IMG/VR virus record: IMGVR_UViG_3300044878_000092
Location: 1-24,363 of that record
Length of the DNA stretch: 24,363 bases
Origin: a virus
Taxonomy: Duplodnaviria > Caudoviricetes
Direction: 5' to 3' (one strand)
In this document: positions 2,656-15,861 of the stretch, piece after piece
How the letters are laid out: the number at the start of each line of letters is the position of its first letter
Numbering within the stretch: the stretch's first letter is position 1
The notes under the pieces: model-generated
What the model was told of the DNA's origin: nothing
Databases searched by the model: none
The model's input: the letters and a program-made list of their open reading frames with translations, nothing else
Position numbers and translations under genes: made by a program

Positions 2656-5600
2656 CTGTTGAATTCTTCCCGAACAAAATGGCCGGCTGCCAACCGCTGG
2701 CCACCTACACCACGCACGAACGCATGACGATCGAGGCCTGGCTCAAGGGCATGACGGAACACTACCAGCGTGCCCCAGTGCAGCCGGTCAGCGTCGAGCT
2801 CAATGGCGAATTGATCTGCCCGACGCTCTGGCACAAGGTCAAGTTCAAGCCGGCCGATCACGTCCAAATCTGGAACGAGCCGAAAGGCTCCGACCCGTTC
2901 ACCATCACCGCCCTGCTGATTGTTGGCGCATTTGCCGCGAGCAAGATGCTCATGCCCAAGATGCCCGGCATGCCAGCCAATACCGGTGTCGCCCAAGGCA
3001 GCCCGCTCGACGAAGCCAGCGCCAAGGGCAACAAGGTCAAGCTCGGCGAACTGATTCGCAACGTCGCCGGGCATCAGAAGGTGTTCCCGTCGTACCTGGC
3101 TGAGCCGCGCACCTGGTTTGCCGCACCACGCGAAAAATGGGTGGAGATGCTGCTGTACGTCTCCGAAGGTGCGGTGGCACTTAGCAAGCTCAAGGTGGGC
3201 GAAACCCCGCTGATCTCTCTTGGTTCCGATGCTCAGGTGATGATCTACGCGCCCGGCGCCGACGTGTCAGCCGATACCGCCTCGATGCTGTGGTTTAACG
3301 CCAAGGAAGTCGGCGCGAGCTCGAGCGGCACGTCAGGGCTTGAATTGACCGTGTCGACCAACCTCACCCCGTCCGCCACGGCCTCGGCCTATCAGTTCAA
3401 CGGCGACACGATCGCCATTCCGTCCGGCGCCGGAAGTTTCCCGGCAGACTGGGAAACCGGTCTGGTGATTCGTGCTCTGGCGCCCTACACCTACACCGTG
3501 GTCGATGGCGGCGCAGGCCGCGACATCGTGCAAGGTCCGCTGGAAATGCTCAGTCCTACCCCCGGCATGCTGATTGAAGTAGCCGGAGCGAACGCTGGCA
3601 ACTACGTCGTCAACTCGTACACACCGTATGCTCCAGCGGTGCCGCCGACCTCTGGCACCGCCTCGACGATCCTCGGCTCAAGCATCCCGGCGCGCTATGA
3701 CTTCGACGTGACCCCGCTGTCGGTCACCGTGACGCTGGGCGGCACGCCGTATGCGGTCAACCTGACGACGGCGACCACCGATCTTGCTGGACTGGTATCG
3801 GCTTTCAACACGGCCAAGGGTTCGGCGCCATTCCTGGCCAGCGCCTCGTCCGGCAAGTTGCTGATCACGCAGTTCGGCACCTTCGGCGGCGAAACCATGG
3901 TGGCCACCGGCGGCGCCGATATCCTCGGTTCCAGCCCGGTCAACACCACCGGCACAGCGGCAAGCGCCGGCATGCCCGAAGTCCCGGCACAGATGACCCT
4001 GGACTACGACGGCGGCGCACCGGTTGTTGGTTTGGCCCTCGGCTCTGGCTTGGCCACCATCGGCCCGCGCGGCCTGCGCTACCGGATCACGGCGTTCAGC
4101 ACCTCGATCATGACCGTTGACCGGCTCACCGCGTCGGGCTCGGTGGATTCCGGATGGATTGGATTCAATCCAATGGAAACCGTAAACGGCTTGGTCACCC
4201 TCGATCCATCCAGTCTCGAGGGCGGCTATCGCGGCCCGTTCGCTTGCTCGCCAGAGAATGAAAAGGTCACGCGCATCGAGTACACCATCGCCTTCGACGG
4301 CCTGATCGGCATGGGCCGGAAAGGTGATGAATACACGATCTACTCGTCGCATCAGTTCGAGTGGCGAGACATGGATGTTGCCGGGGCGTGGACCGTCCGG
4401 ACGCAAAGCGTTACCGGTCACTCGCGGGATGCGCAAGGCTTCACCTTTTGGTTCGATCTGCCCTACCCGATGCGGCCAGAAGGCAGGCTCAAGCGCCTAC
4501 CCAAAGGCGGCGGTTCTAACAGCGCCGAGTGGATCGACAGCCCGAGATGGGAAAGTCTGCGTGGCTTGCGTCAGACGCGGCCGACCAGCTACCCGGGCAT
4601 GACCGTGATGTCCGTCAAAATTCGCGGCGGTGATCGACTGTCTGCGCAATCGGAAAGCCAGATCAACGGCGAAGCAACCCGCGTGCTGCCGGTTCGCTCG
4701 GGCGGGGCTTGGCAGGCGCCGGTGGCCACCCGCGGCATCGTGCCCTGGTGCCTGCATGTCCTGAAGTCGCTGGGCTATGAAGACGGCGACATCGACCTGG
4801 AAGAGTGGGATCGGCTGGACCTGGTATTCAACGCCGCCGGCCAGTATTACGACGAGACCATCGACGACAACAGCACCGCCAAGGATCGGCTCAACGATGC
4901 GCTGGCTTGCGGCTTTGCCGAGCTGACCATCAAGAACGGCCTGGTCAGCCTGGTGCGCGACGAGCCGCGGGCGATATTCGATATCACCTACGGCCCGAAG
5001 ACGCAGACCTACAGCCCGCAAAACATGACCAAGAAGCTCAGCATCGCCGGGCCGCTGACTTCGCTCAACGACATCGACGGCGTGGATGTCGAGTATTTCT
5101 CGAACATCACCTGGGCCTGGGAAACCGTGCCGTGCCGCTGGCCAGGCGATGCCGGCAACAAGGTCGAGAAGGTCAAGCTGCCGGGTGTGGGCGATCGCAA
5201 CCGGGCGTATCAGTTCGGCATGCGCCGTCGCGGACACCAGAAGTTCCGGCAGGACACCTACACCTGGGAAACCGAACTGGCCGGCATGAACTCGGACTAC
5301 CTGAGTTTCTGCGCGGTGGCCAGCGATACCCCGGGTCAATGCCAGAGCGCCGAGCTTGTCAGCGTGCAGGCGGTCAGTGGCGGCTTCGTGCTGGAGTCGT
5401 CGGAGCCGATCGACTGGTCAGCGCCCGAGATTTACAAAGTCGGCATCAGTCGTGCTGATGGCTCTCTCTCAGGTCCCTACCAGGGGACACAAATCGACGA
5501 ATACCACGTCCAGGTCGCCGACCTCGACTTCGTACCCGACACCAGCATGAGCGGAAACATGAAGTTGCCCCAGTTGCTGATCGGGCCTTGGTCGAAGTGG

Positions 5601-9935: not shown

Positions 9936-10970
9936 TCAGGCTGCTTGCTTTCGCTGGATTCGCTGAAGCAGGGAATCCGCAGAGACTGATTTCGGCGGGG
10001 CCAGAAGTGCGCCGAGCCGGTAACGCTTGATGATGACCTGGGCGAGCAATGGCGCGGCGATGCCGATCAGGGTGCCGATGATCAGGTGCGCTGCCGGCGA
10101 CTGAATGCCCATGAGCTTGCTCAGCACCACGCGCACACCGCTGCCGGCAATGACGTGCATCAGGTAAATGGTCATCGAGGTAGCACCGATATGCATCAGC
10201 CCCTTTAGGCTCAAGCGGCTCAGGGTCATCGACAGCGCAATCACGAAGCCGATGGAGACCGTGGCCAGGGCCAGCGAGGCCACGCCTTTATCCTCATACA
10301 GTAGGCCCATGGGGCCGTGGAACAGATACTGGCCCAGCACAAAGAGCGCGCCCAACGTGCCAGTCAGGGCGGCGTAGTGCTTCTCGAACAGGGCTTTGAT
10401 GTCGTCAAAGCAAATCCCGAGGATGAAGAAGAAGGCATTGCCCAGGATAAACGTGCTGAGCATGCTCTTCGGCAGATCGCCTTGGATGATGTACAGGGCG
10501 CCGAAGGCTGCCAGCAGCAAGGCGCTGCGCGACTTATCGAAGAGCGTGAACAAGACCGAGCTGATGACGAACACCAGGAACAGCGCATACAGGAACCAGA
10601 ACTGCGCCCGTGGCTCCCACGCCAGCGACAGAACCTCGCTGAATGTCACGCTGCCATTTGTATACTTGGACAGGATGCTCTCAAGTGAGCCCTGTAGCAG
10701 CGACCATATAATGTACGGATACAATATGGTATCGACCTTGTTAACAATCAGGCCGGTGGCGCCGCGACTTTTAAACGAGTTGTAGAAAAACAGGCCAGAG
10801 AGGAAAAAGAACAGCGGCATGTGGAAGCTGTAGATGATGCTGTCCACCAGCTGAAACAGGTTCTCGTCCATTTGCGCGCCAGCCTTGTGCACGCCTCGCG
10901 CCACGTGCCCGTACACCACCAAGATGATGCCGATCGCCTTCGCGTAATCGACCCATGAATTCCTTTCCAT
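9936..10970 (-). CDS. Acyltransferase family 3 membrane protein (probable O-antigen/surface polysaccharide O-acetyltransferase, lysogenic conversion gene)
   Basis: 344 aa, about 10 hydrophobic segments; R..WVDYAKAIGIILVVYGH, YSFHMPLFFFLSG, WFLYALF and SMTIYLMH are Acyl_transf_3 motifs; GAGGA RBS. Confidence 0.88.
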   Translation of the reverse strand: MERNSWVDYAKAIGIILVVYGHVARGVHKAGAQMDENLFQLVDSIIYSFHMPLFFFLSGLFFYNSFKSRGATGLIVNKVDTILYPYIIWSLLQGSLESILSKYTNGSVTFSEVLSLAWEPRAQFWFLYALFLVFVISSVLFTLFDKSRSALLLAAFGALYIIQGDLPKSMLSTFILGNAFFFILGICFDDIKALFEKHYAALTGTLGALFVLGQYLFHGPMGLLYEDKGVASLALATVSIGFVIALSMTLSRLSLKGLMHIGATSMTIYLMHVIAGSGVRVVLSKLMGIQSPAAHLIIGTLIGIAAPLLAQVIIKRYRLGALLAPPKSVSADSLLQRIQRKQAA

Positions 10971-11934: not shown

Positions 11935-12698
11935 TGCGCGCTCTCCTTGTTGGCCGGCTCAATCTTGATGCCCATGGCTATGGCTTGGTTGCGCCGAACT
12001 TCTTCAGGACTTGGTCCCTTGCTCAGCTTAAGGGCAAGCTCTGCCATCTCGGCAGGGATTGGTCCGGCCTTAGATGGCTCGGCTGGATCTGGCAGAGCTT
12101 CGACGATCTGGCGGATATACGTCGGCGCCGTCGTGTTGGTGGACATCGCAAGGCACGGGATGATCTGGCGCAGCAGAGACTCGTAACACGCATTCCGCTG
12201 CTCGGCGGCGGTCAGGCGCTGCTTCAACTTGTTTTGCATGGTCGCCTTGGAAATGGTCATGGAGTTCAACCGTTCGAAAGTTTCGTTGGCTCGGTACGCC
12301 ACATCGTTTTTCTCGCGACTGACCTTGGCCAGTTCTTCCCGCAAAGCATGCTCGCGCTCGCCCGCAGCCGCGTAGGCTTCACGCAGCTGCTCGACCTCGC
12401 CGGCATCGGATCGGGTGAAGAGTGGAACCAAGTTGCCCTTTGGTGATTGCTCCCCGAAGGCGTAGCAGCACTCGTCCCCTCGAAGCGTTGCCAGCACATC
12501 CGGCTTGATCCACGCCGCCGGCTGCGCCTCGACTGTCAGCCGCTCGGCTGCCGACTCAAGCAACTGGCGGGCCAGGCCGCATACGCCGTTCGGCACCAGC
12601 GCGCCTTTGCTATCGAGGGCCAGTAGCGACTTGATGCTGTCGACCAGTTTTGCGTTGTCGCCCTTGAAGCTGTACGGCGTGTTCTCTTCCTTGCTCAT
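11931..12698 (-). CDS. Hypothetical phage protein with coiled-coil (Eaa/Ea22-like accessory type)
   Basis: 255 aa from ATG 12698 with AAGGGG RBS; QPAAW and QRLTAAEQRN segments typical of Pseudomonas phage early accessory proteins. Confidence 0.65.
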   Translation of the reverse strand: MSKEENTPYSFKGDNAKLVDSIKSLLALDSKGALVPNGVCGLARQLLESAAERLTVEAQPAAWIKPDVLATLRGDECCYAFGEQSPKGNLVPLFTRSDAGEVEQLREAYAAAGEREHALREELAKVSREKNDVAYRANETFERLNSMTISKATMQNKLKQRLTAAEQRNACYESLLRQIIPCLAMSTNTTAPTYIRQIVEALPDPAEPSKAGPIPAEMAELALKLSKGPSPEEVRRNQAIAMGIKIEPANKESAQ

Positions 12699-12713
12699 CA
12701 CTCACCCCTTCGT

Positions 12714-12944
12714 TTATTTGTCGCCGGACTGCCCGGCCTCATTTGCCAGCGCCTCAAGCGCGAACTGCACGGTGTACGGTGCTTTGCGGTACGTTTCGTG
12801 GTCGGTGGCCACCAGGTAGTAGCGCAGCGCCCGGTCACTCATGCCGAGGGCGGCGGCTGCCTTTCGCTGGCTGATGCCGGCCTTATCCAGCAACCCGCGC
12901 AGATACGCCGGGTCTGGGTTGTAGGTTGTTGCGTCTGGCTTCAT
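12714..12944 (-). CDS. aca1: Anti-CRISPR-associated HTH repressor Aca1
   Basis: MKPDATTYNPDPAYLRGLLDKAGISQRKAAAALGMSDRALRYYL...YRKAPYTVQFALEALAN closely follows the P. aeruginosa phage JBD30 Aca1 sequence as I recall it (PDPRYLRGLLKKAGISQRRAAELLGLSDRVMRYYL...YRPAPYTVQFALECLAN). Confidence 0.9.
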   Translation of the reverse strand: MKPDATTYNPDPAYLRGLLDKAGISQRKAAAALGMSDRALRYYLVATDHETYRKAPYTVQFALEALANEAGQSGDK

Positions 12945-12968
12945 TGCGACTGACTCGCTGTGATTGGT

Positions 12969-12990
12969 AAAGCCCCGGCTAAGGGGCTCT
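12969..12990 (-). terminator. Hairpin with short U-tract between the candidate acr and aca1
   Basis: Minus strand AGAGCCCC-TTAGCC-GGGGCTTT; possibly a leaky terminator. Confidence 0.45.
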
Positions 12991-13001
12991 ACTGCGGGCG
13001 A

Positions 13002-13181
13002 TCATGGAAGAGAAAGCTTTGCCAGCGACCTGGCTGCTTCGAGGTGGTAGCGAACATCACGGACCTGGCCAGGAACGTAGCCGCCGATAAACCCTTGGCC
13101 ATCGACTTTTGCTGCCAAGTGGCAATTCAATGCGCCCTTCAGCCATTGCATTGCTTCGTTCAGATGGTAGGCCTTGGTCAT
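13002..13181 (-). CDS. Candidate anti-CRISPR / anti-defence protein, 59 aa
   Basis: MTKAYHLNEAMQWLKGALNCHLAAKVDGQGFIGGYVPGQVRDVRYHLEAARSLAKLSLP; GGAG RBS 9 nt upstream; only gene between the promoter and aca1. Function inferred by association only. Confidence 0.7.
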   Translation of the reverse strand: MTKAYHLNEAMQWLKGALNCHLAAKVDGQGFIGGYVPGQVRDVRYHLEAARSLAKLSLP

Positions 13182-13229
13182 ACGATAATGCTCCGCTATT
13201 CGCCGCGCCGGTGTGGCTGGCATGGGCTT

Positions 13230-13258
13230 ACTATAGGAACTATATTCCTATCTTGCAA
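13230..13258 (-). promoter_or_regulatory. Strong sigma70 promoter with an Aca1-type operator in the spacer
   Basis: Minus strand TTGCAA-17 bp-TATAGT; inverted repeat ATAGGAA-CTATA-TTCCTAT at 13233-13251. Confidence 0.85.
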
Positions 13259-13355
13259 GAGCCTGAGCAGGATATTTTTCAGCGCTGCCAAACATCGCCG
13301 CCGCCTTATCCCCCGACGAGTCGCCATCGGTTGGAATCCAGCGCCCGTATACCCG
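13248..13355 (-). pseudogene. Orphaned second copy of the integrase C-terminus
   Basis: Directly after the HNH stop the minus strand reads RVYGRWIPTDGDSSGDKAAAMFGSAEKYPAQALAR*, homologous to the integrase tail RIYGRWMPSADPEAGSKANKLYGAKDD. Confidence 0.8.
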
Positions 13356-13862
13356 CTAAGTCTCTTCGAAGAGACCCATAACAGGCGTATCAATCTTGCA
13401 AAACTCAGGTACGTGCTTTGCGGCAAGCGAGGCGTATGCTACAGCTGCATCCTGGGCGTTGTGGAAGTATCCGCGCTTAAACTCCCTGCCGAGTACGACT
13501 ATTTTCGCAAACCATCGTTTCCGATCCTTGCTCCAGTACACGCCTTTGTGGCCGGATGTATTGTGGTTGCCCGGGCCTTTGTTGTGCATGTTTTGAGATG
13601 GGCTCGCCAGCCTGAGGTTTGATCGCGTGTTGTTTAGGCCGTTCCCGTCAATGTGATCGACCTGCATATTGGCCGGGCAATTCATTAGGACCCTGTGAAG
13701 GTATCCTCTCTTTTGTTTTGCGGCGCCTCGCCCCTTTGGTGTGGTTCTGATGTAGGTATTGGTCCCTTTCCGGTCGACGGCCAATGAATACTTCTCCATC
13801 ACCCAGGCATCGGCCTCATCAAGCAGAAGCACTTCCCCGCCCGTGAATTCTCTCTGAATCAT
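13356..13862 (-). CDS. HNH-AP2 homing endonuclease
   Basis: LHRVLM...VDHIDGNGLNNTRSNLRLAS.SQN..N (HNH) plus SGHKGVYW...RW.AKI......GYF.NAQDAAVAY (AP2). Start probably ATG 13862 (GGAG RBS) or 13874; overlaps the integrase 3' end. Confidence 0.9.
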   Translation of the reverse strand: MIQREFTGGEVLLLDEADAWVMEKYSLAVDRKGTNTYIRTTPKGRGAAKQKRGYLHRVLMNCPANMQVDHIDGNGLNNTRSNLRLASPSQNMHNKGPGNHNTSGHKGVYWSKDRKRWFAKIVVLGREFKRGYFHNAQDAAVAYASLAAKHVPEFCKIDTPVMGLFEET

Positions 13863-15003
13863 CTTTCGCTCCATAAAGTTTGTTTGCCTTGGATCCGGCT
13901 TCAGGGTCAGCCGATGGCATCCATCGACCGTAAATCCTGCTAATCATGAGAAATGATGCGTGCCCCATCTGCTTGGCCACCCACATAGGATGCTCGCCCG
14001 CGCTCAGCATCATTGAGGCGTAGGTGTGCCGGGTCTGGTACGGGTTCCGGTAGCGCACGCCTGCCCGGCGGATGGTCGGCCCCCAGAATGACTTCCTGAT
14101 CTCCTGGTCGCCATTGAATGCCCGGTTGTGCCTCGGGTCGTGGAATACGGCCTTCCCTTCTATATAGGTGTGCTCGCGCTGGGCCTTCAGTGCCTCGAAC
14201 GACATGGGCAGCAGGCGCACGCTACGCACCCCGGCCGCTGTCTTCGGCGTCTCTGCCTCGCTGGCCGCCGCCGTCAGCCCCCGCGACACCCTCACTTCCC
14301 CGCGATGCCAATCAATGTCGCCCCACTCCAGCGCGACCAGCTCCGACGTTCGCAGGCCGGTCCAGAAGGCGAACTGCAACAGGTTCCGATACTGCCCGGT
14401 CGCTGCCGCCAGAATGGCCCGCTGCTCGTCCGGACTGAATGGGTCGATCTCGTCCTCGGTGCGCGGCCTTCCCTTCACTGAATACGTCCAGCCTGCCAAC
14501 GGGTTCGACTCGATCAACTCGTCGTCCACGGCATCGCTCAGGGCTGACCGGAGGCAGCTTTGCACGTTGGCCAGCCGCTTGTTCGTCGCCGACATCTTGG
14601 CCATGGCCGCCTTGACCTCTTTGCGCGTGACCGATGCCAGCGCCAGGCTACCCAGCGCCGGGACCAGAACCCCCGCAACGATCTTGCGGTAACCGTCCAG
14701 CGTCGAAGCCTTCAGGATTCCGGCCTTTCGCTCAAGCCACTCATCCAGGTACTGGCCCAGCGGAACCTGCCCGGACTGGCCGACAGCCGATGCCGCCCGC
14801 TTCGACCGGGGAAACGCCTCAGCATATTCAAACTCGCCCCGGTGAATCGCCAGGTCGATCGAGGCCTTCTGCTGCTGCGCCCGCTTCAGGTTGGCCGGCG
14901 TAGGCTCCAGCGGCAGGCGCTCACGGCACTGCTTGCCGTCGACCATGAACGAGATCTCGATACTGCTTTTCGATGCCGCACGCACCCCGCGCTTCGCAGC
15001 CAT
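13819..15003 (-). CDS. int: Tyrosine integrase with N-terminal Arm-DNA-binding (DUF3596-type) domain
   Basis: SIEISFMVDGKQCRERL...TPANLKRA N-terminus; catalytic motifs TGLRTSE, PKT, PYQTRHTYAS, QMGH, RIYGRW. Confidence 0.93.
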   Translation of the reverse strand: MAAKRGVRAASKSSIEISFMVDGKQCRERLPLEPTPANLKRAQQQKASIDLAIHRGEFEYAEAFPRSKRAASAVGQSGQVPLGQYLDEWLERKAGILKASTLDGYRKIVAGVLVPALGSLALASVTRKEVKAAMAKMSATNKRLANVQSCLRSALSDAVDDELIESNPLAGWTYSVKGRPRTEDEIDPFSPDEQRAILAAATGQYRNLLQFAFWTGLRTSELVALEWGDIDWHRGEVRVSRGLTAAASEAETPKTAAGVRSVRLLPMSFEALKAQREHTYIEGKAVFHDPRHNRAFNGDQEIRKSFWGPTIRRAGVRYRNPYQTRHTYASMMLSAGEHPMWVAKQMGHASFLMISRIYGRWMPSADPEAGSKANKLYGAKDDSERIHGRGSASA

Positions 15004-15069
15004 ACGCCACCCCTGACGAATTCGTTTTCATTGGCCGACAGTTTAGACCTGTGCCGCGCGTGGCGGCTG

Positions 15070-15861
15070 TTAGGCTGTTGCAAACATGTCGATTTGCTGT
15101 GCTGCAGCGTCTCGGTTTTCGATAGCCTCCACTATCCTGCGATGGGCCGTATCGAAGTAGCCAAGCCGGTTTCCGTTCTCGTCTAGGTCGCGCTCGATGC
15201 CAATGAAGCGGCGGCCAAGTTGCATGCAGGCCACGCCTGTCGAGCCGCTGCCCATTGAATTGTCCAGCACCATATGACCCGGCTTGGTGTATGTCCTTAT
15301 CAAAAACTCCATCCATGCAACGGGCTTCTGAGTCGGATGAAAGCTGCCGGACTGTTTGTCGCTCGAGAAGAACTGCACCGATCGCGGGTACCGATCTGTC
15401 GAGTCGTATTCGGACAGAGCCAGGGCTTTGCCGTAGCACTCCGAGTTGACCGTCTTGCGCTTGCTGGTCTTGCGTTCATGCCCACTCGACATCTGCGGGG
15501 TATACACTGGCTGCTGGCGGTAGAAGACCTGGGCGCTTTCATGCGCACGAAGCGGCTGTTTTTTTGCGTTCAGGAAGCCAGTGGCGTTGCCTTTCTCCCA
15601 AATCCACTCATACCGGTAGTGCCTTGGATTGCTGGCCACGCACAGCGAAGAGAAGGGCTGGGCTGCGCATAGAACAATGGCTGCCTCAGGCCTGGCGATC
15701 CGCAGATACTCGCGCCACAGTGGCTCGAAGGGGATTATCACGTCCCAGGCGCACTGGGTTGTTCCGTATGGAAGGTCGGCCAGCACCATGTCGACGCTGG
15801 CGTCTGGCAAATTCTTCATCACCTCCAAGCAGTCGCCGAGATAGAGTTCGTATTCGCTCAT
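15070..15861 (-). CDS. Orphan DNA methyltransferase (N6-adenine/N4-cytosine, beta class)
   Basis: GDCLEVM, DLPYG (motif IV), HPTQKP, VLDNSMGSGSTGVAC (motif I); no cognate restriction gene nearby. Confidence 0.9.
   Translation of the reverse strand: MSEYELYLGDCLEVMKNLPDASVDMVLADLPYGTTQCAWDVIIPFEPLWREYLRIARPEAAIVLCAAQPFSSLCVASNPRHYRYEWIWEKGNATGFLNAKKQPLRAHESAQVFYRQQPVYTPQMSSGHERKTSKRKTVNSECYGKALALSEYDSTDRYPRSVQFFSSDKQSGSFHPTQKPVAWMEFLIRTYTKPGHMVLDNSMGSGSTGVACMQLGRRFIGIERDLDENGNRLGYFDTAHRRIVEAIENRDAAAQQIDMFATA

What the first reader, a model, noticed from the sequence alone, without database searches (positions are those of the whole stretch)
13248..13960. Homing endonuclease cassette inserted at the integrase catalytic tyrosine, repairing int with a replacement C-terminus
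Seen: int ends ...SRIYGRWMPSADPEAGSKANKLYGAKDD... in AT-richer codons and overlaps the HNH-AP2 gene, whose RBS lies within that tail. Exactly after the HNH stop (TAG 13358-13356) a second tail starts: RVYGRWIPTDGDSSGDKAAAMFGSAEK...*. Both copies contain the YGRW catalytic-Tyr motif but differ at the DNA level (AGGATTTACGGTCGATGG versus CGGGTATACGGGCGCTGG). Established: homing endonucleases target conserved catalytic codons and usually avoid harm through introns, inteins or free-standing intronless homing. Inference: a splicing-free element that inserts in the active-site codons and carries a recoded substitute 3' end, keeping int functional and immune to recleavage. I do not know this arrangement described for phage integrases.
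Basis: partly seen in the sequence, partly recalled or inferred. Interest (0 to 1): 0.8.

Follow-up and report, generated by a model that had tools for sequence, protein, structure and literature searches.

The report
Homing nuclease swaps integrase gene's tail
A DNA-cutting-enzyme gene sits inside the end of a phage's integrase gene, bringing a substitute gene end and leaving the original end stranded behind it; it likely spreads by cutting uninvaded copies of the gene without needing splicing, a trick known from fungi and yeast that I did not find described for phage integrases.

Summary
Confirmed. A net 583-bp cassette (foreign int 3' end plus an HNH-AP2 gene) sits 3-5 codons before the predicted catalytic Tyr358 of a phage tyrosine integrase. 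Of 33 close relatives with a readable tail, 32 lack it. In 23 the int runs straight into the 'orphan' tail; the best (L012) is 99% identical over its 108 nt and 97% over 612 nt downstream. One relative (L001) has a second version at the same site: nuclease 74% identical at DNA level but under purifying selection (dN 0.15, dS about 2), a different replacement tail, and an orphan matching its own neighbourhood. Occupied and empty alleles co-occur in sequencing runs. Nine empties carry a recoded patch resembling L001's replacement, a candidate resistant allele. No intron or att repeat was found. Most likely a splicing-free homing element (about 0.75); cleavage is untested. The mechanism is known from fungal mitochondrial mORF gene hybrids and yeast WHO elements, so the principle is not new. 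I found no paper on a phage integrase case. This scan noted the same layout before in other phage and archaeal genes, not in integrases. The element is rare. The orphan's last codons also hold a predicted promoter for an anti-CRISPR-type locus.

The parts
13819..15003 (-). Tyrosine integrase gene (394 aa; Arm-DNA-bind_2 + Phage_integrase), chimeric: native to about codon 350, foreign 3' end after it
   Evidence: Pfam and PHROGs; 91.7-93.8% nt identity to empty alleles up to about 13915
13819..13952 (-). Replacement 3' end of int carried by the cassette, including the predicted catalytic Tyr358 (codon 13932-13930)
   Evidence: Departs from empty allele L012 at 13954-13951 and from 13941 on; 51% nt identity to the orphan over 63 nt; best match among 137 int tails in hand 67% nt; Tyr invariant in 77 of 77 empty ints
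13356..13862 (-). HNH-AP2 endonuclease gene (168 aa from the likely start 13862), overlapping the last 44 nt of int
   Evidence: Pfam HNH_3 E 2.5e-9; DH..N..N motif aligns with I-HmuI 1u3e; family profile hits AP2 structures and 1u3e; model pLDDT 92.8, matches AP2 (Z 6.9) and I-HmuI (Z 5.5)
13360..13375 (-). Short hairpin/palindrome at the cassette's right end, stem kept and loop changed in L001; function unexplained
   Evidence: (z -1.5 and -2.2, weak)
13248..13355 (-). Orphaned native 3' end of int (35 codons, in frame with the HNH stop)
   Evidence: First 63 nt 100% identical to at least 10 and on average 98.7% to 23 empty RW-type alleles; 99.1% over 108 nt to L012
13230..13258 (-). Predicted sigma-70 promoter (TTGCAA-17-TATAGT) whose -35 lies in the orphan's last codons, with an inverted repeat in the spacer
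   Evidence: 9 of 12 consensus matches; 2 found, 1.0 expected in shuffles; same layout in 7 of 35 close relatives, all 7 with the aca-like gene downstream
13002..13181 (-). Small ORF (59 aa, or 73 aa from 13223), candidate anti-CRISPR by position only
   Evidence: No Pfam, PHROG or NCBIfam hit; lies between the promoter and the aca-like gene; slot is variable among relatives
12714..12944 (-). HTH gene, 69% identical to the gene that follows the two anti-CRISPR genes of phage JBD24 (Aca1; name recalled)

Best explanation
An HNH-AP2 nuclease gene and a foreign copy of the integrase gene's last ~45 codons form one cassette that sits in the int 3' end and has displaced the native end, and it likely spreads as a splicing-free homing element. 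Inferred steps: the nuclease, probably translated from the int mRNA (its start and ribosome site lie inside the int tail), would nick or cut an empty int allele near the Tyr codon in a co-infecting phage or resident prophage. Repair would use the conserved int core on the left and the orphan tail on the right as homology arms. The recipient would keep a full-length Int with the donor's tail, which is predicted to resist recutting, and its own old tail would become the new orphan. The orphan is probably also kept because its last codons carry the -35 of the downstream promoter.
For: Shown: (1) empty alleles join int to the orphan tail (joints in 4 of 4 runs laid). (2) A second occupied allele at the same site within 3 codons (L001; same contig as L081/L249/L310, and L082 is identical over 4516 nt, so one allele). 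(3) The two nucleases are far more diverged (74% nt, dS about 2) than the int cores they sit in (dS 0.26), with dN 0.146, so the nuclease is under purifying selection. (4) Neither orphan has decayed, and each matches its own neighbourhood: window with L012 (96% over 400 nt), L001 with L025/L007 (91-93% over 139 nt). (5) The two occupied ints are not sisters on the core tree (0% of 200 bootstrap trees). (6) The replacement keeps the invariant M-I-x-R-x-Y-G-R, P, G, A, G residues; 6 of 10 shared residues are recoded. (7) Further occupied variants in other studies: X2 holds the window-type HNH/orphan junction (108 nt, 1 difference); an X4 contig joins an L001-type replacement tail to the HNH (496 nt, 32 differences). 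Established: the same layout with shown cleavage in yeast WHO elements (PMC7282813) and fungal mORFs (PMC3630166).
Against: No cleavage, expression or recombination data. The element is rare: 1 of 33 close relatives, 1 orphan among 43 integrase-type matches in a viral collection scan, so it is not sweeping. Ordinary homologous recombination between co-infecting phages would refresh the orphan just as homing would. The RW tail is unusually conserved among empties (pi 0.024), which weakens '100% identical' as a clock. The core tree is poorly resolved (21 of 30 inner branches open) and 2 changes for two tips is what shuffles give too. Phage free-standing nucleases often cut far from their gene (PMC2988022), so the cut site may not be at the Tyr codon. 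Tyr358 aligns one residue off the position that differs between two solved Int chains.
Confidence: 0.75

Rival explanations
1. Passive mosaic: an int 3' end and a neighbouring free-standing HNH gene came in once from another phage by a homologous left and an illegitimate right crossover, and have since moved only by ordinary recombination; the nuclease cuts elsewhere or nowhere.
For: These phages are highly mosaic around int. The cassette is rare. An unrelated free-standing HNH lies 415 nt behind int in L004 with no second tail. The orphan may persist only for its promoter.
Against: Purifying selection on the nuclease across dS about 2 while it stays at one site; two different replacement tails on one cassette backbone, both recoded around the Tyr codon; both window-like nuclease alleles with readable context sit in this arrangement.
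Confidence: 0.18
2. The insert is a self-splicing intron and the downstream copy is the real last exon.
For: HNH genes are common in phage group I introns (established); the window insert ends in G.
Against: No Rfam match at E up to 5 in 12600-15200. Only about 80 nt of the insert lie outside the HNH ORF and none after its stop. The upstream copy already completes the ORF. L001's right junction differs by 6 nt and does not end in G.
Confidence: 0.03
3. The duplication is the scar of site-specific integration or transposition into an att-like site in int.
For: Integrating elements often restore the gene they interrupt (established); a conserved hairpin lies at the right end.
Against: No identical core repeat or terminal inverted repeat at the junctions; the two tails are only 51% identical; the cassette encodes no recombinase or transposase.
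Confidence: 0.03
4. Assembly chimera of two co-occurring phages.
For: Occupied and empty alleles co-occur in run X1, which may be the source sample.
Against: One 664-nt contig without differences covers the whole cassette in X1; independent studies hold the junctions (X2, X4); L001 has the same layout with different letters.
Confidence: 0.01

Closest known systems
Mobile endonuclease ORFs (mORFs) forming gene hybrids in fungal mitochondria: Allomyces macrogynus atp6; Glomus atp6, atp9, cox2, nad3; Ophiostoma rps3 (PMC3630166 and PMC4019555, passages read)
   Same: Foreign C-terminus in frame with the host gene, then the endonuclease ORF, then the displaced native C-terminus, which matches close relatives better than the inserted one does. 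No splicing needed.
   Different: Those are LAGLIDADG or GIY-YIG enzymes in organelle genes; this is an HNH-AP2 enzyme in a temperate phage, in a recombinase gene, overlapping the host gene's stop in another frame.
WHO elements at FBA1 in Torulaspora and Lachancea (PMC7282813; abstract and sections 10 and 13 read)
   Same: Unit = resistant 3' end plus nuclease; downstream fragment is the recipient's old 3' end and the second homology arm; two ends of the host gene have discordant histories (here RW/RY tail types: cores 91% identical between types, tails 60%).
   Different: WHO proteins are intein-derived LAGLIDADG-zinc finger fusions, transcribed independently, homing in meiosis, and build clusters. 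Here a single promoterless-looking HNH-AP2 gene; no cluster found; cleavage not shown.
Free-standing phage homing endonucleases and intronless homing (T4 seg/mob; PMC2988022, PMC13565253, PMC10448857, PMC12724721; passages read)
   Same: Intron-less nuclease gene overlapping the upstream ORF; immunity by allele differences; HNH-AP2 architecture is a recognised phage HEG class.
   Different: Described as intergenic, with cut sites hundreds to thousands of bases away; the passages I saw describe no insertion inside a coding end with a duplicated, displaced terminus, and no integrase target.

Membership tests
mORF / WHO-type 3'-end-replacing homing element | Host gene intact, with a foreign 3' end in frame | tested here: met
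mORF / WHO-type 3'-end-replacing homing element | Displaced native 3' end downstream of the nuclease, matching empty alleles better than the replacement does | tested here: met
   98.7% mean to 23 RW empties versus 51% to own replacement
mORF / WHO-type 3'-end-replacing homing element | Empty and occupied alleles coexist | tested here: met
   32 empty, 1 occupied of 33 close relatives; both in run X1
mORF / WHO-type 3'-end-replacing homing element | No splicing element | tested here: inconclusive
   No Rfam hit and no room for a ribozyme, but no RNA reads to test directly
mORF / WHO-type 3'-end-replacing homing element | Allele-specific cleavage of the empty allele and biased inheritance | not testable with these tools
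   Needs bench work
WHO family proper | Intein-derived LAGLIDADG plus zinc finger protein | tested here: not met
   The protein is HNH-AP2; it works like WHO but is not a member
HNH-AP2 homing endonucleases | I-HmuI-like HNH motif followed by a C-terminal AP2 domain | tested here: met
   (Z 5.5-6.9 is middling on its own; the sequence profile carries the assignment)
Tyrosine integrases | R...K...RH...H...Y catalytic set with the Tyr in the duplicated tail | tested here: met
   R218, K254, R325, H348, Y358 located; Y invariant in 77 of 77 empties; nucleophile role predicted, one residue uncertain against solved Int
Group I intron | Ribozyme core and conserved splice junctions | tested here: not met

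The most novel reading that the evidence does not exclude
A complete splicing-free homing cycle at a phage integrase active site: sensitive RW alleles are invaded; the cassette re-patches its replacement tail as nuclease specificity drifts (window versus L001); and recombination between the two tail copies ejects the nuclease and leaves the recoded, resistant RY allele now scattered over the int tree. Because int also sits in prophages, the nuclease would cut the host chromosome at resident prophages, making it a weapon against, or converter of, competing lysogens.
Probability: 0.25. Interest if true: 0.75.

Novelty: new variant of a known kind. Interest (0 to 1): 0.55.

Why it matters
Phage homing endonucleases are usually sorted into intron, intein and intergenic free-standing types. 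This is a well-controlled phage case of the tail-replacing type known from fungi and yeast, with near-identical empty alleles, two diverged occupied alleles and a candidate resistant allele, so a four-substrate cleavage matrix can test the whole model in one experiment. It would show that selfish nucleases recode the active-site region of integrases, explain a mobile 70-nt allele patch in this int family, and warn that short int C-terminal fragments next to prophage ends are not always att scars.

Tried and rejected
Breadth searches found no further triads. HNH relatives: 134 loci tested for a duplicated upstream gene end; only the window and the L001 allele involved int. Pattern 'tail - HNH motif - tail' in viral contigs: 17 hits, 1 real, the L001 contig; it covers only spacings of about 530-595 nt. 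Pattern RVYGRWIP: 51 hits, 42 in intact ints, 1 orphan (L001 contig), 8 unrelated. 401 genomes of one gammaproteobacterial order: 83 had int-tail matches; none of the 30 loci returned held an HNH and 6 isolated tail fragments that I cut out had no nuclease beside them; only 16 candidates per genome were scored, so this is weak. The genome-contig scan with the HNH alignment found no close relative. A protein search with the int C-terminus found nothing. No close donor for the window's replacement tail: best 67% nt. Contexts of homologues P0002 (83%) and P0004 (52%) could not be fetched. First fold with 4 sequences was poor (pLDDT 54) and was not used; the Foldseek search did not run. The orphan-versus-empty figures printed had an offset error and were redone. 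RNA-labelled runs were contigs and probably DNA, so splicing and expression were not tested. Intron, att/transposon and chimera readings rejected as above. Of 24 runs listed I laid 7; the rest are not used. Supplements of the cited papers were not read.

Full report
Setting. The window is a fragment of a temperate tailed phage: tail genes on the + strand, then on the - strand recombination genes, SSB, Rha, a methyltransferase, the integrase and accessory genes. The closest annotated records are Pseudomonas phages at about 69% identity over int, so a Pseudomonas host is likely but not shown.

Observation. The nuclease probably starts at 13862, with GGAG 6 nt upstream inside the int tail; its three closest homologues start at that Met. 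It has an I-HmuI-like HNH motif and a C-terminal AP2 domain; a confident model (pLDDT 92.8) matches AP2 domains (Z 6.9, rmsd 2.6, 68 aligned) and I-HmuI (Z 5.5, rmsd 3.0, 74 aligned). Tyr358 is the predicted nucleophile: ten residues after His348 and invariant in 77 of 77 empty integrases.

Empty alleles. The best 80 of 240 int relatives in viral contigs were fetched; 78 had a readable tail. Among the 35 closest, 33 were readable: 23 end in the window's orphan sequence (RW type), 9 in a recoded variant (RY type), 1 is occupied (L001). L012 is nearly the pre-insertion state: 93.8% over int, then 96.9% over 612 nt starting at window 13356, and 99.1% over the orphan itself. The net insert is 583 nt (joint 13356/13942 with 2 letters between). 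Foreign letters begin at codon 351; the displaced copy begins at codon 356 here and 353 in L001.

Second occupied allele. L001 has the same layout. L081, L249 and L310 are the same contig and L082 is identical over 4516 nt, so these count once. Its nuclease is 74% identical in DNA, with dN 0.146 and dS about 2 (near saturation), against dS 0.26 for the int cores. Its replacement tail is only 55% identical to the window's, although both share the F-L-M-I-S start and the distal part overlapping the HNH start. Its orphan differs from RW empties by three silent changes and one residue seen in working alleles, and its distal half and downstream DNA match a different group of empties (L007, L025, L004) than the window's do (L012). 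An old, selected nuclease between young, locally matching flanks is what repeated movement predicts. Movement by homing and by ordinary recombination cannot be told apart from sequence.

Sequencing runs. In X1, possibly the source sample, a 664-nt contig matches the whole cassette without a difference (depth 282) beside an empty allele (depth 1113). X2, another study, holds the HNH/orphan junction and the replacement/HNH part with one difference each. All 4 runs laid on the window show empty-allele joints. On L001, an X4 contig joins the RY-like replacement tail to the nuclease at 93.5% identity; X3 and X12 showed no nuclease. All are contigs, so nothing is said about RNA.

Candidate resistant allele. 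RW and RY empties are 91% identical in the int core and 60% in the tail patch; RY alleles are 96.5% alike in the patch but scattered on the core tree (7 changes for 8 tips, shuffled mean 7.3; L034 dropped as 5'-truncated), so the patch moves horizontally. L001's replacement carries 12 of 22 RY-diagnostic letters, 5 RW and 5 neither. Four RY empties have an RY head joined to L001's orphan-type distal half (91-96% for the three compared), the structure expected if recombination between the two tail copies removed the nuclease. At 82-87% identity in the head they are not recent products of L001, and a similar head is common in the sister group of integrases, so an origin by simple recombination is as possible. 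This step is speculative.

Why the orphan stays. Besides serving as homology arm (inferred), its last codons hold the -35 of a predicted promoter with an inverted repeat in the spacer, seen in 7 of 35 relatives, each followed by an HTH gene 69% identical to the one after the JBD24 anti-CRISPR genes (the name Aca1 is recalled). In L001 a different promoter-like motif lies just past the orphan's stop, so this reason applies to the window lineage only.

Rivals. Intron: no Rfam match, no room outside the ORF, junctions not conserved. Integration or transposition scar: no terminal or core repeats, no recombinase. Chimera: contradicted by L001, X2 and X4. Passive mosaic remains the live rival (0.18).

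Breadth. The element is rare; details and limits are under Tried and rejected.

Comparison with what is known. The layout and proposed mechanism match fungal mitochondrial mORF gene hybrids (PMC3630166, passages; PMC4019555 and PMC6279837, passages) and yeast WHO elements (PMC7282813, abstract and sections 10 and 13), where allele-specific cleavage was shown. Phage papers checked by passage search (PMC2988022, PMC10448857, PMC12724721, PMC13565253, PMC7468147; also PMC8393795) describe intergenic free-standing nucleases and I saw no duplicated gene end in them. Searches aimed at a phage or integrase case (listings only, open-licence library) returned none; subscription papers and supplements were not covered. 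Earlier notes of this scan report the same layout in phage helicase, methyltransferase, phoH and tail genes and in archaeal genes, none in an integrase and none with this nuclease; I did not check them. They supplied the term 'mORF gene hybrid' that led to PMC3630166.

Verdict. Real, well controlled, most likely a splicing-free homing element that replaces the int tail (0.75). It works like mORF/WHO elements but is not a WHO family member. New variant of a known kind; interest 0.55.

Noticed in passing
window 13258-12714 (-): Predicted acr-aca-type locus directly behind int: promoter with inverted repeat, a 59-73 aa ORF of no known family (candidate anti-CRISPR), and an Aca1-like HTH gene. The slot between promoter and HTH gene varies in length among relatives.
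   Followed up: partly
window 13375-13360 and L001 4628-4645: Hairpin at the cassette's right end, stem conserved and loop changed; homologue P0004 ends in the same two residues (E-T) that this stretch encodes.
   Followed up: partly
window 13358-13248; L001 4638-4760: In both occupied alleles the orphan is in frame with the HNH ORF, and the stop sits at a different codon in each (and elsewhere again in P0002), as if an HNH-tail fusion were lost more than once; could be chance.
   Followed up: no
int codons 356-376 in 23 RW empties: This 63-nt stretch is much less variable (pi 0.024) than 63-nt windows in the rest of int (0.044-0.164); a recent sweep or an overlapping DNA function is possible.
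   Followed up: partly
L004 about 4580-4920: An unrelated, apparently frameshifted HNH-AP2 gene (35% identity) lies 415 nt behind int, without a second tail.
   Followed up: partly
L232, L235-L238, L240, L243: A distant HNH gene is flanked by two similar small lysine-rich ORFs (alignment scores 59-97); looks like paralogues on both sides of the nuclease.
   Followed up: no
window 15067-15004: About 60 nt upstream of int are conserved in most close relatives while the genes further upstream vary; candidate promoter or att-arm region.
   Followed up: no
window 9936-10970 (-): Acyltransferase-3 (O-acetyltransferase) gene, a likely host surface-modifying accessory gene.
   Followed up: no
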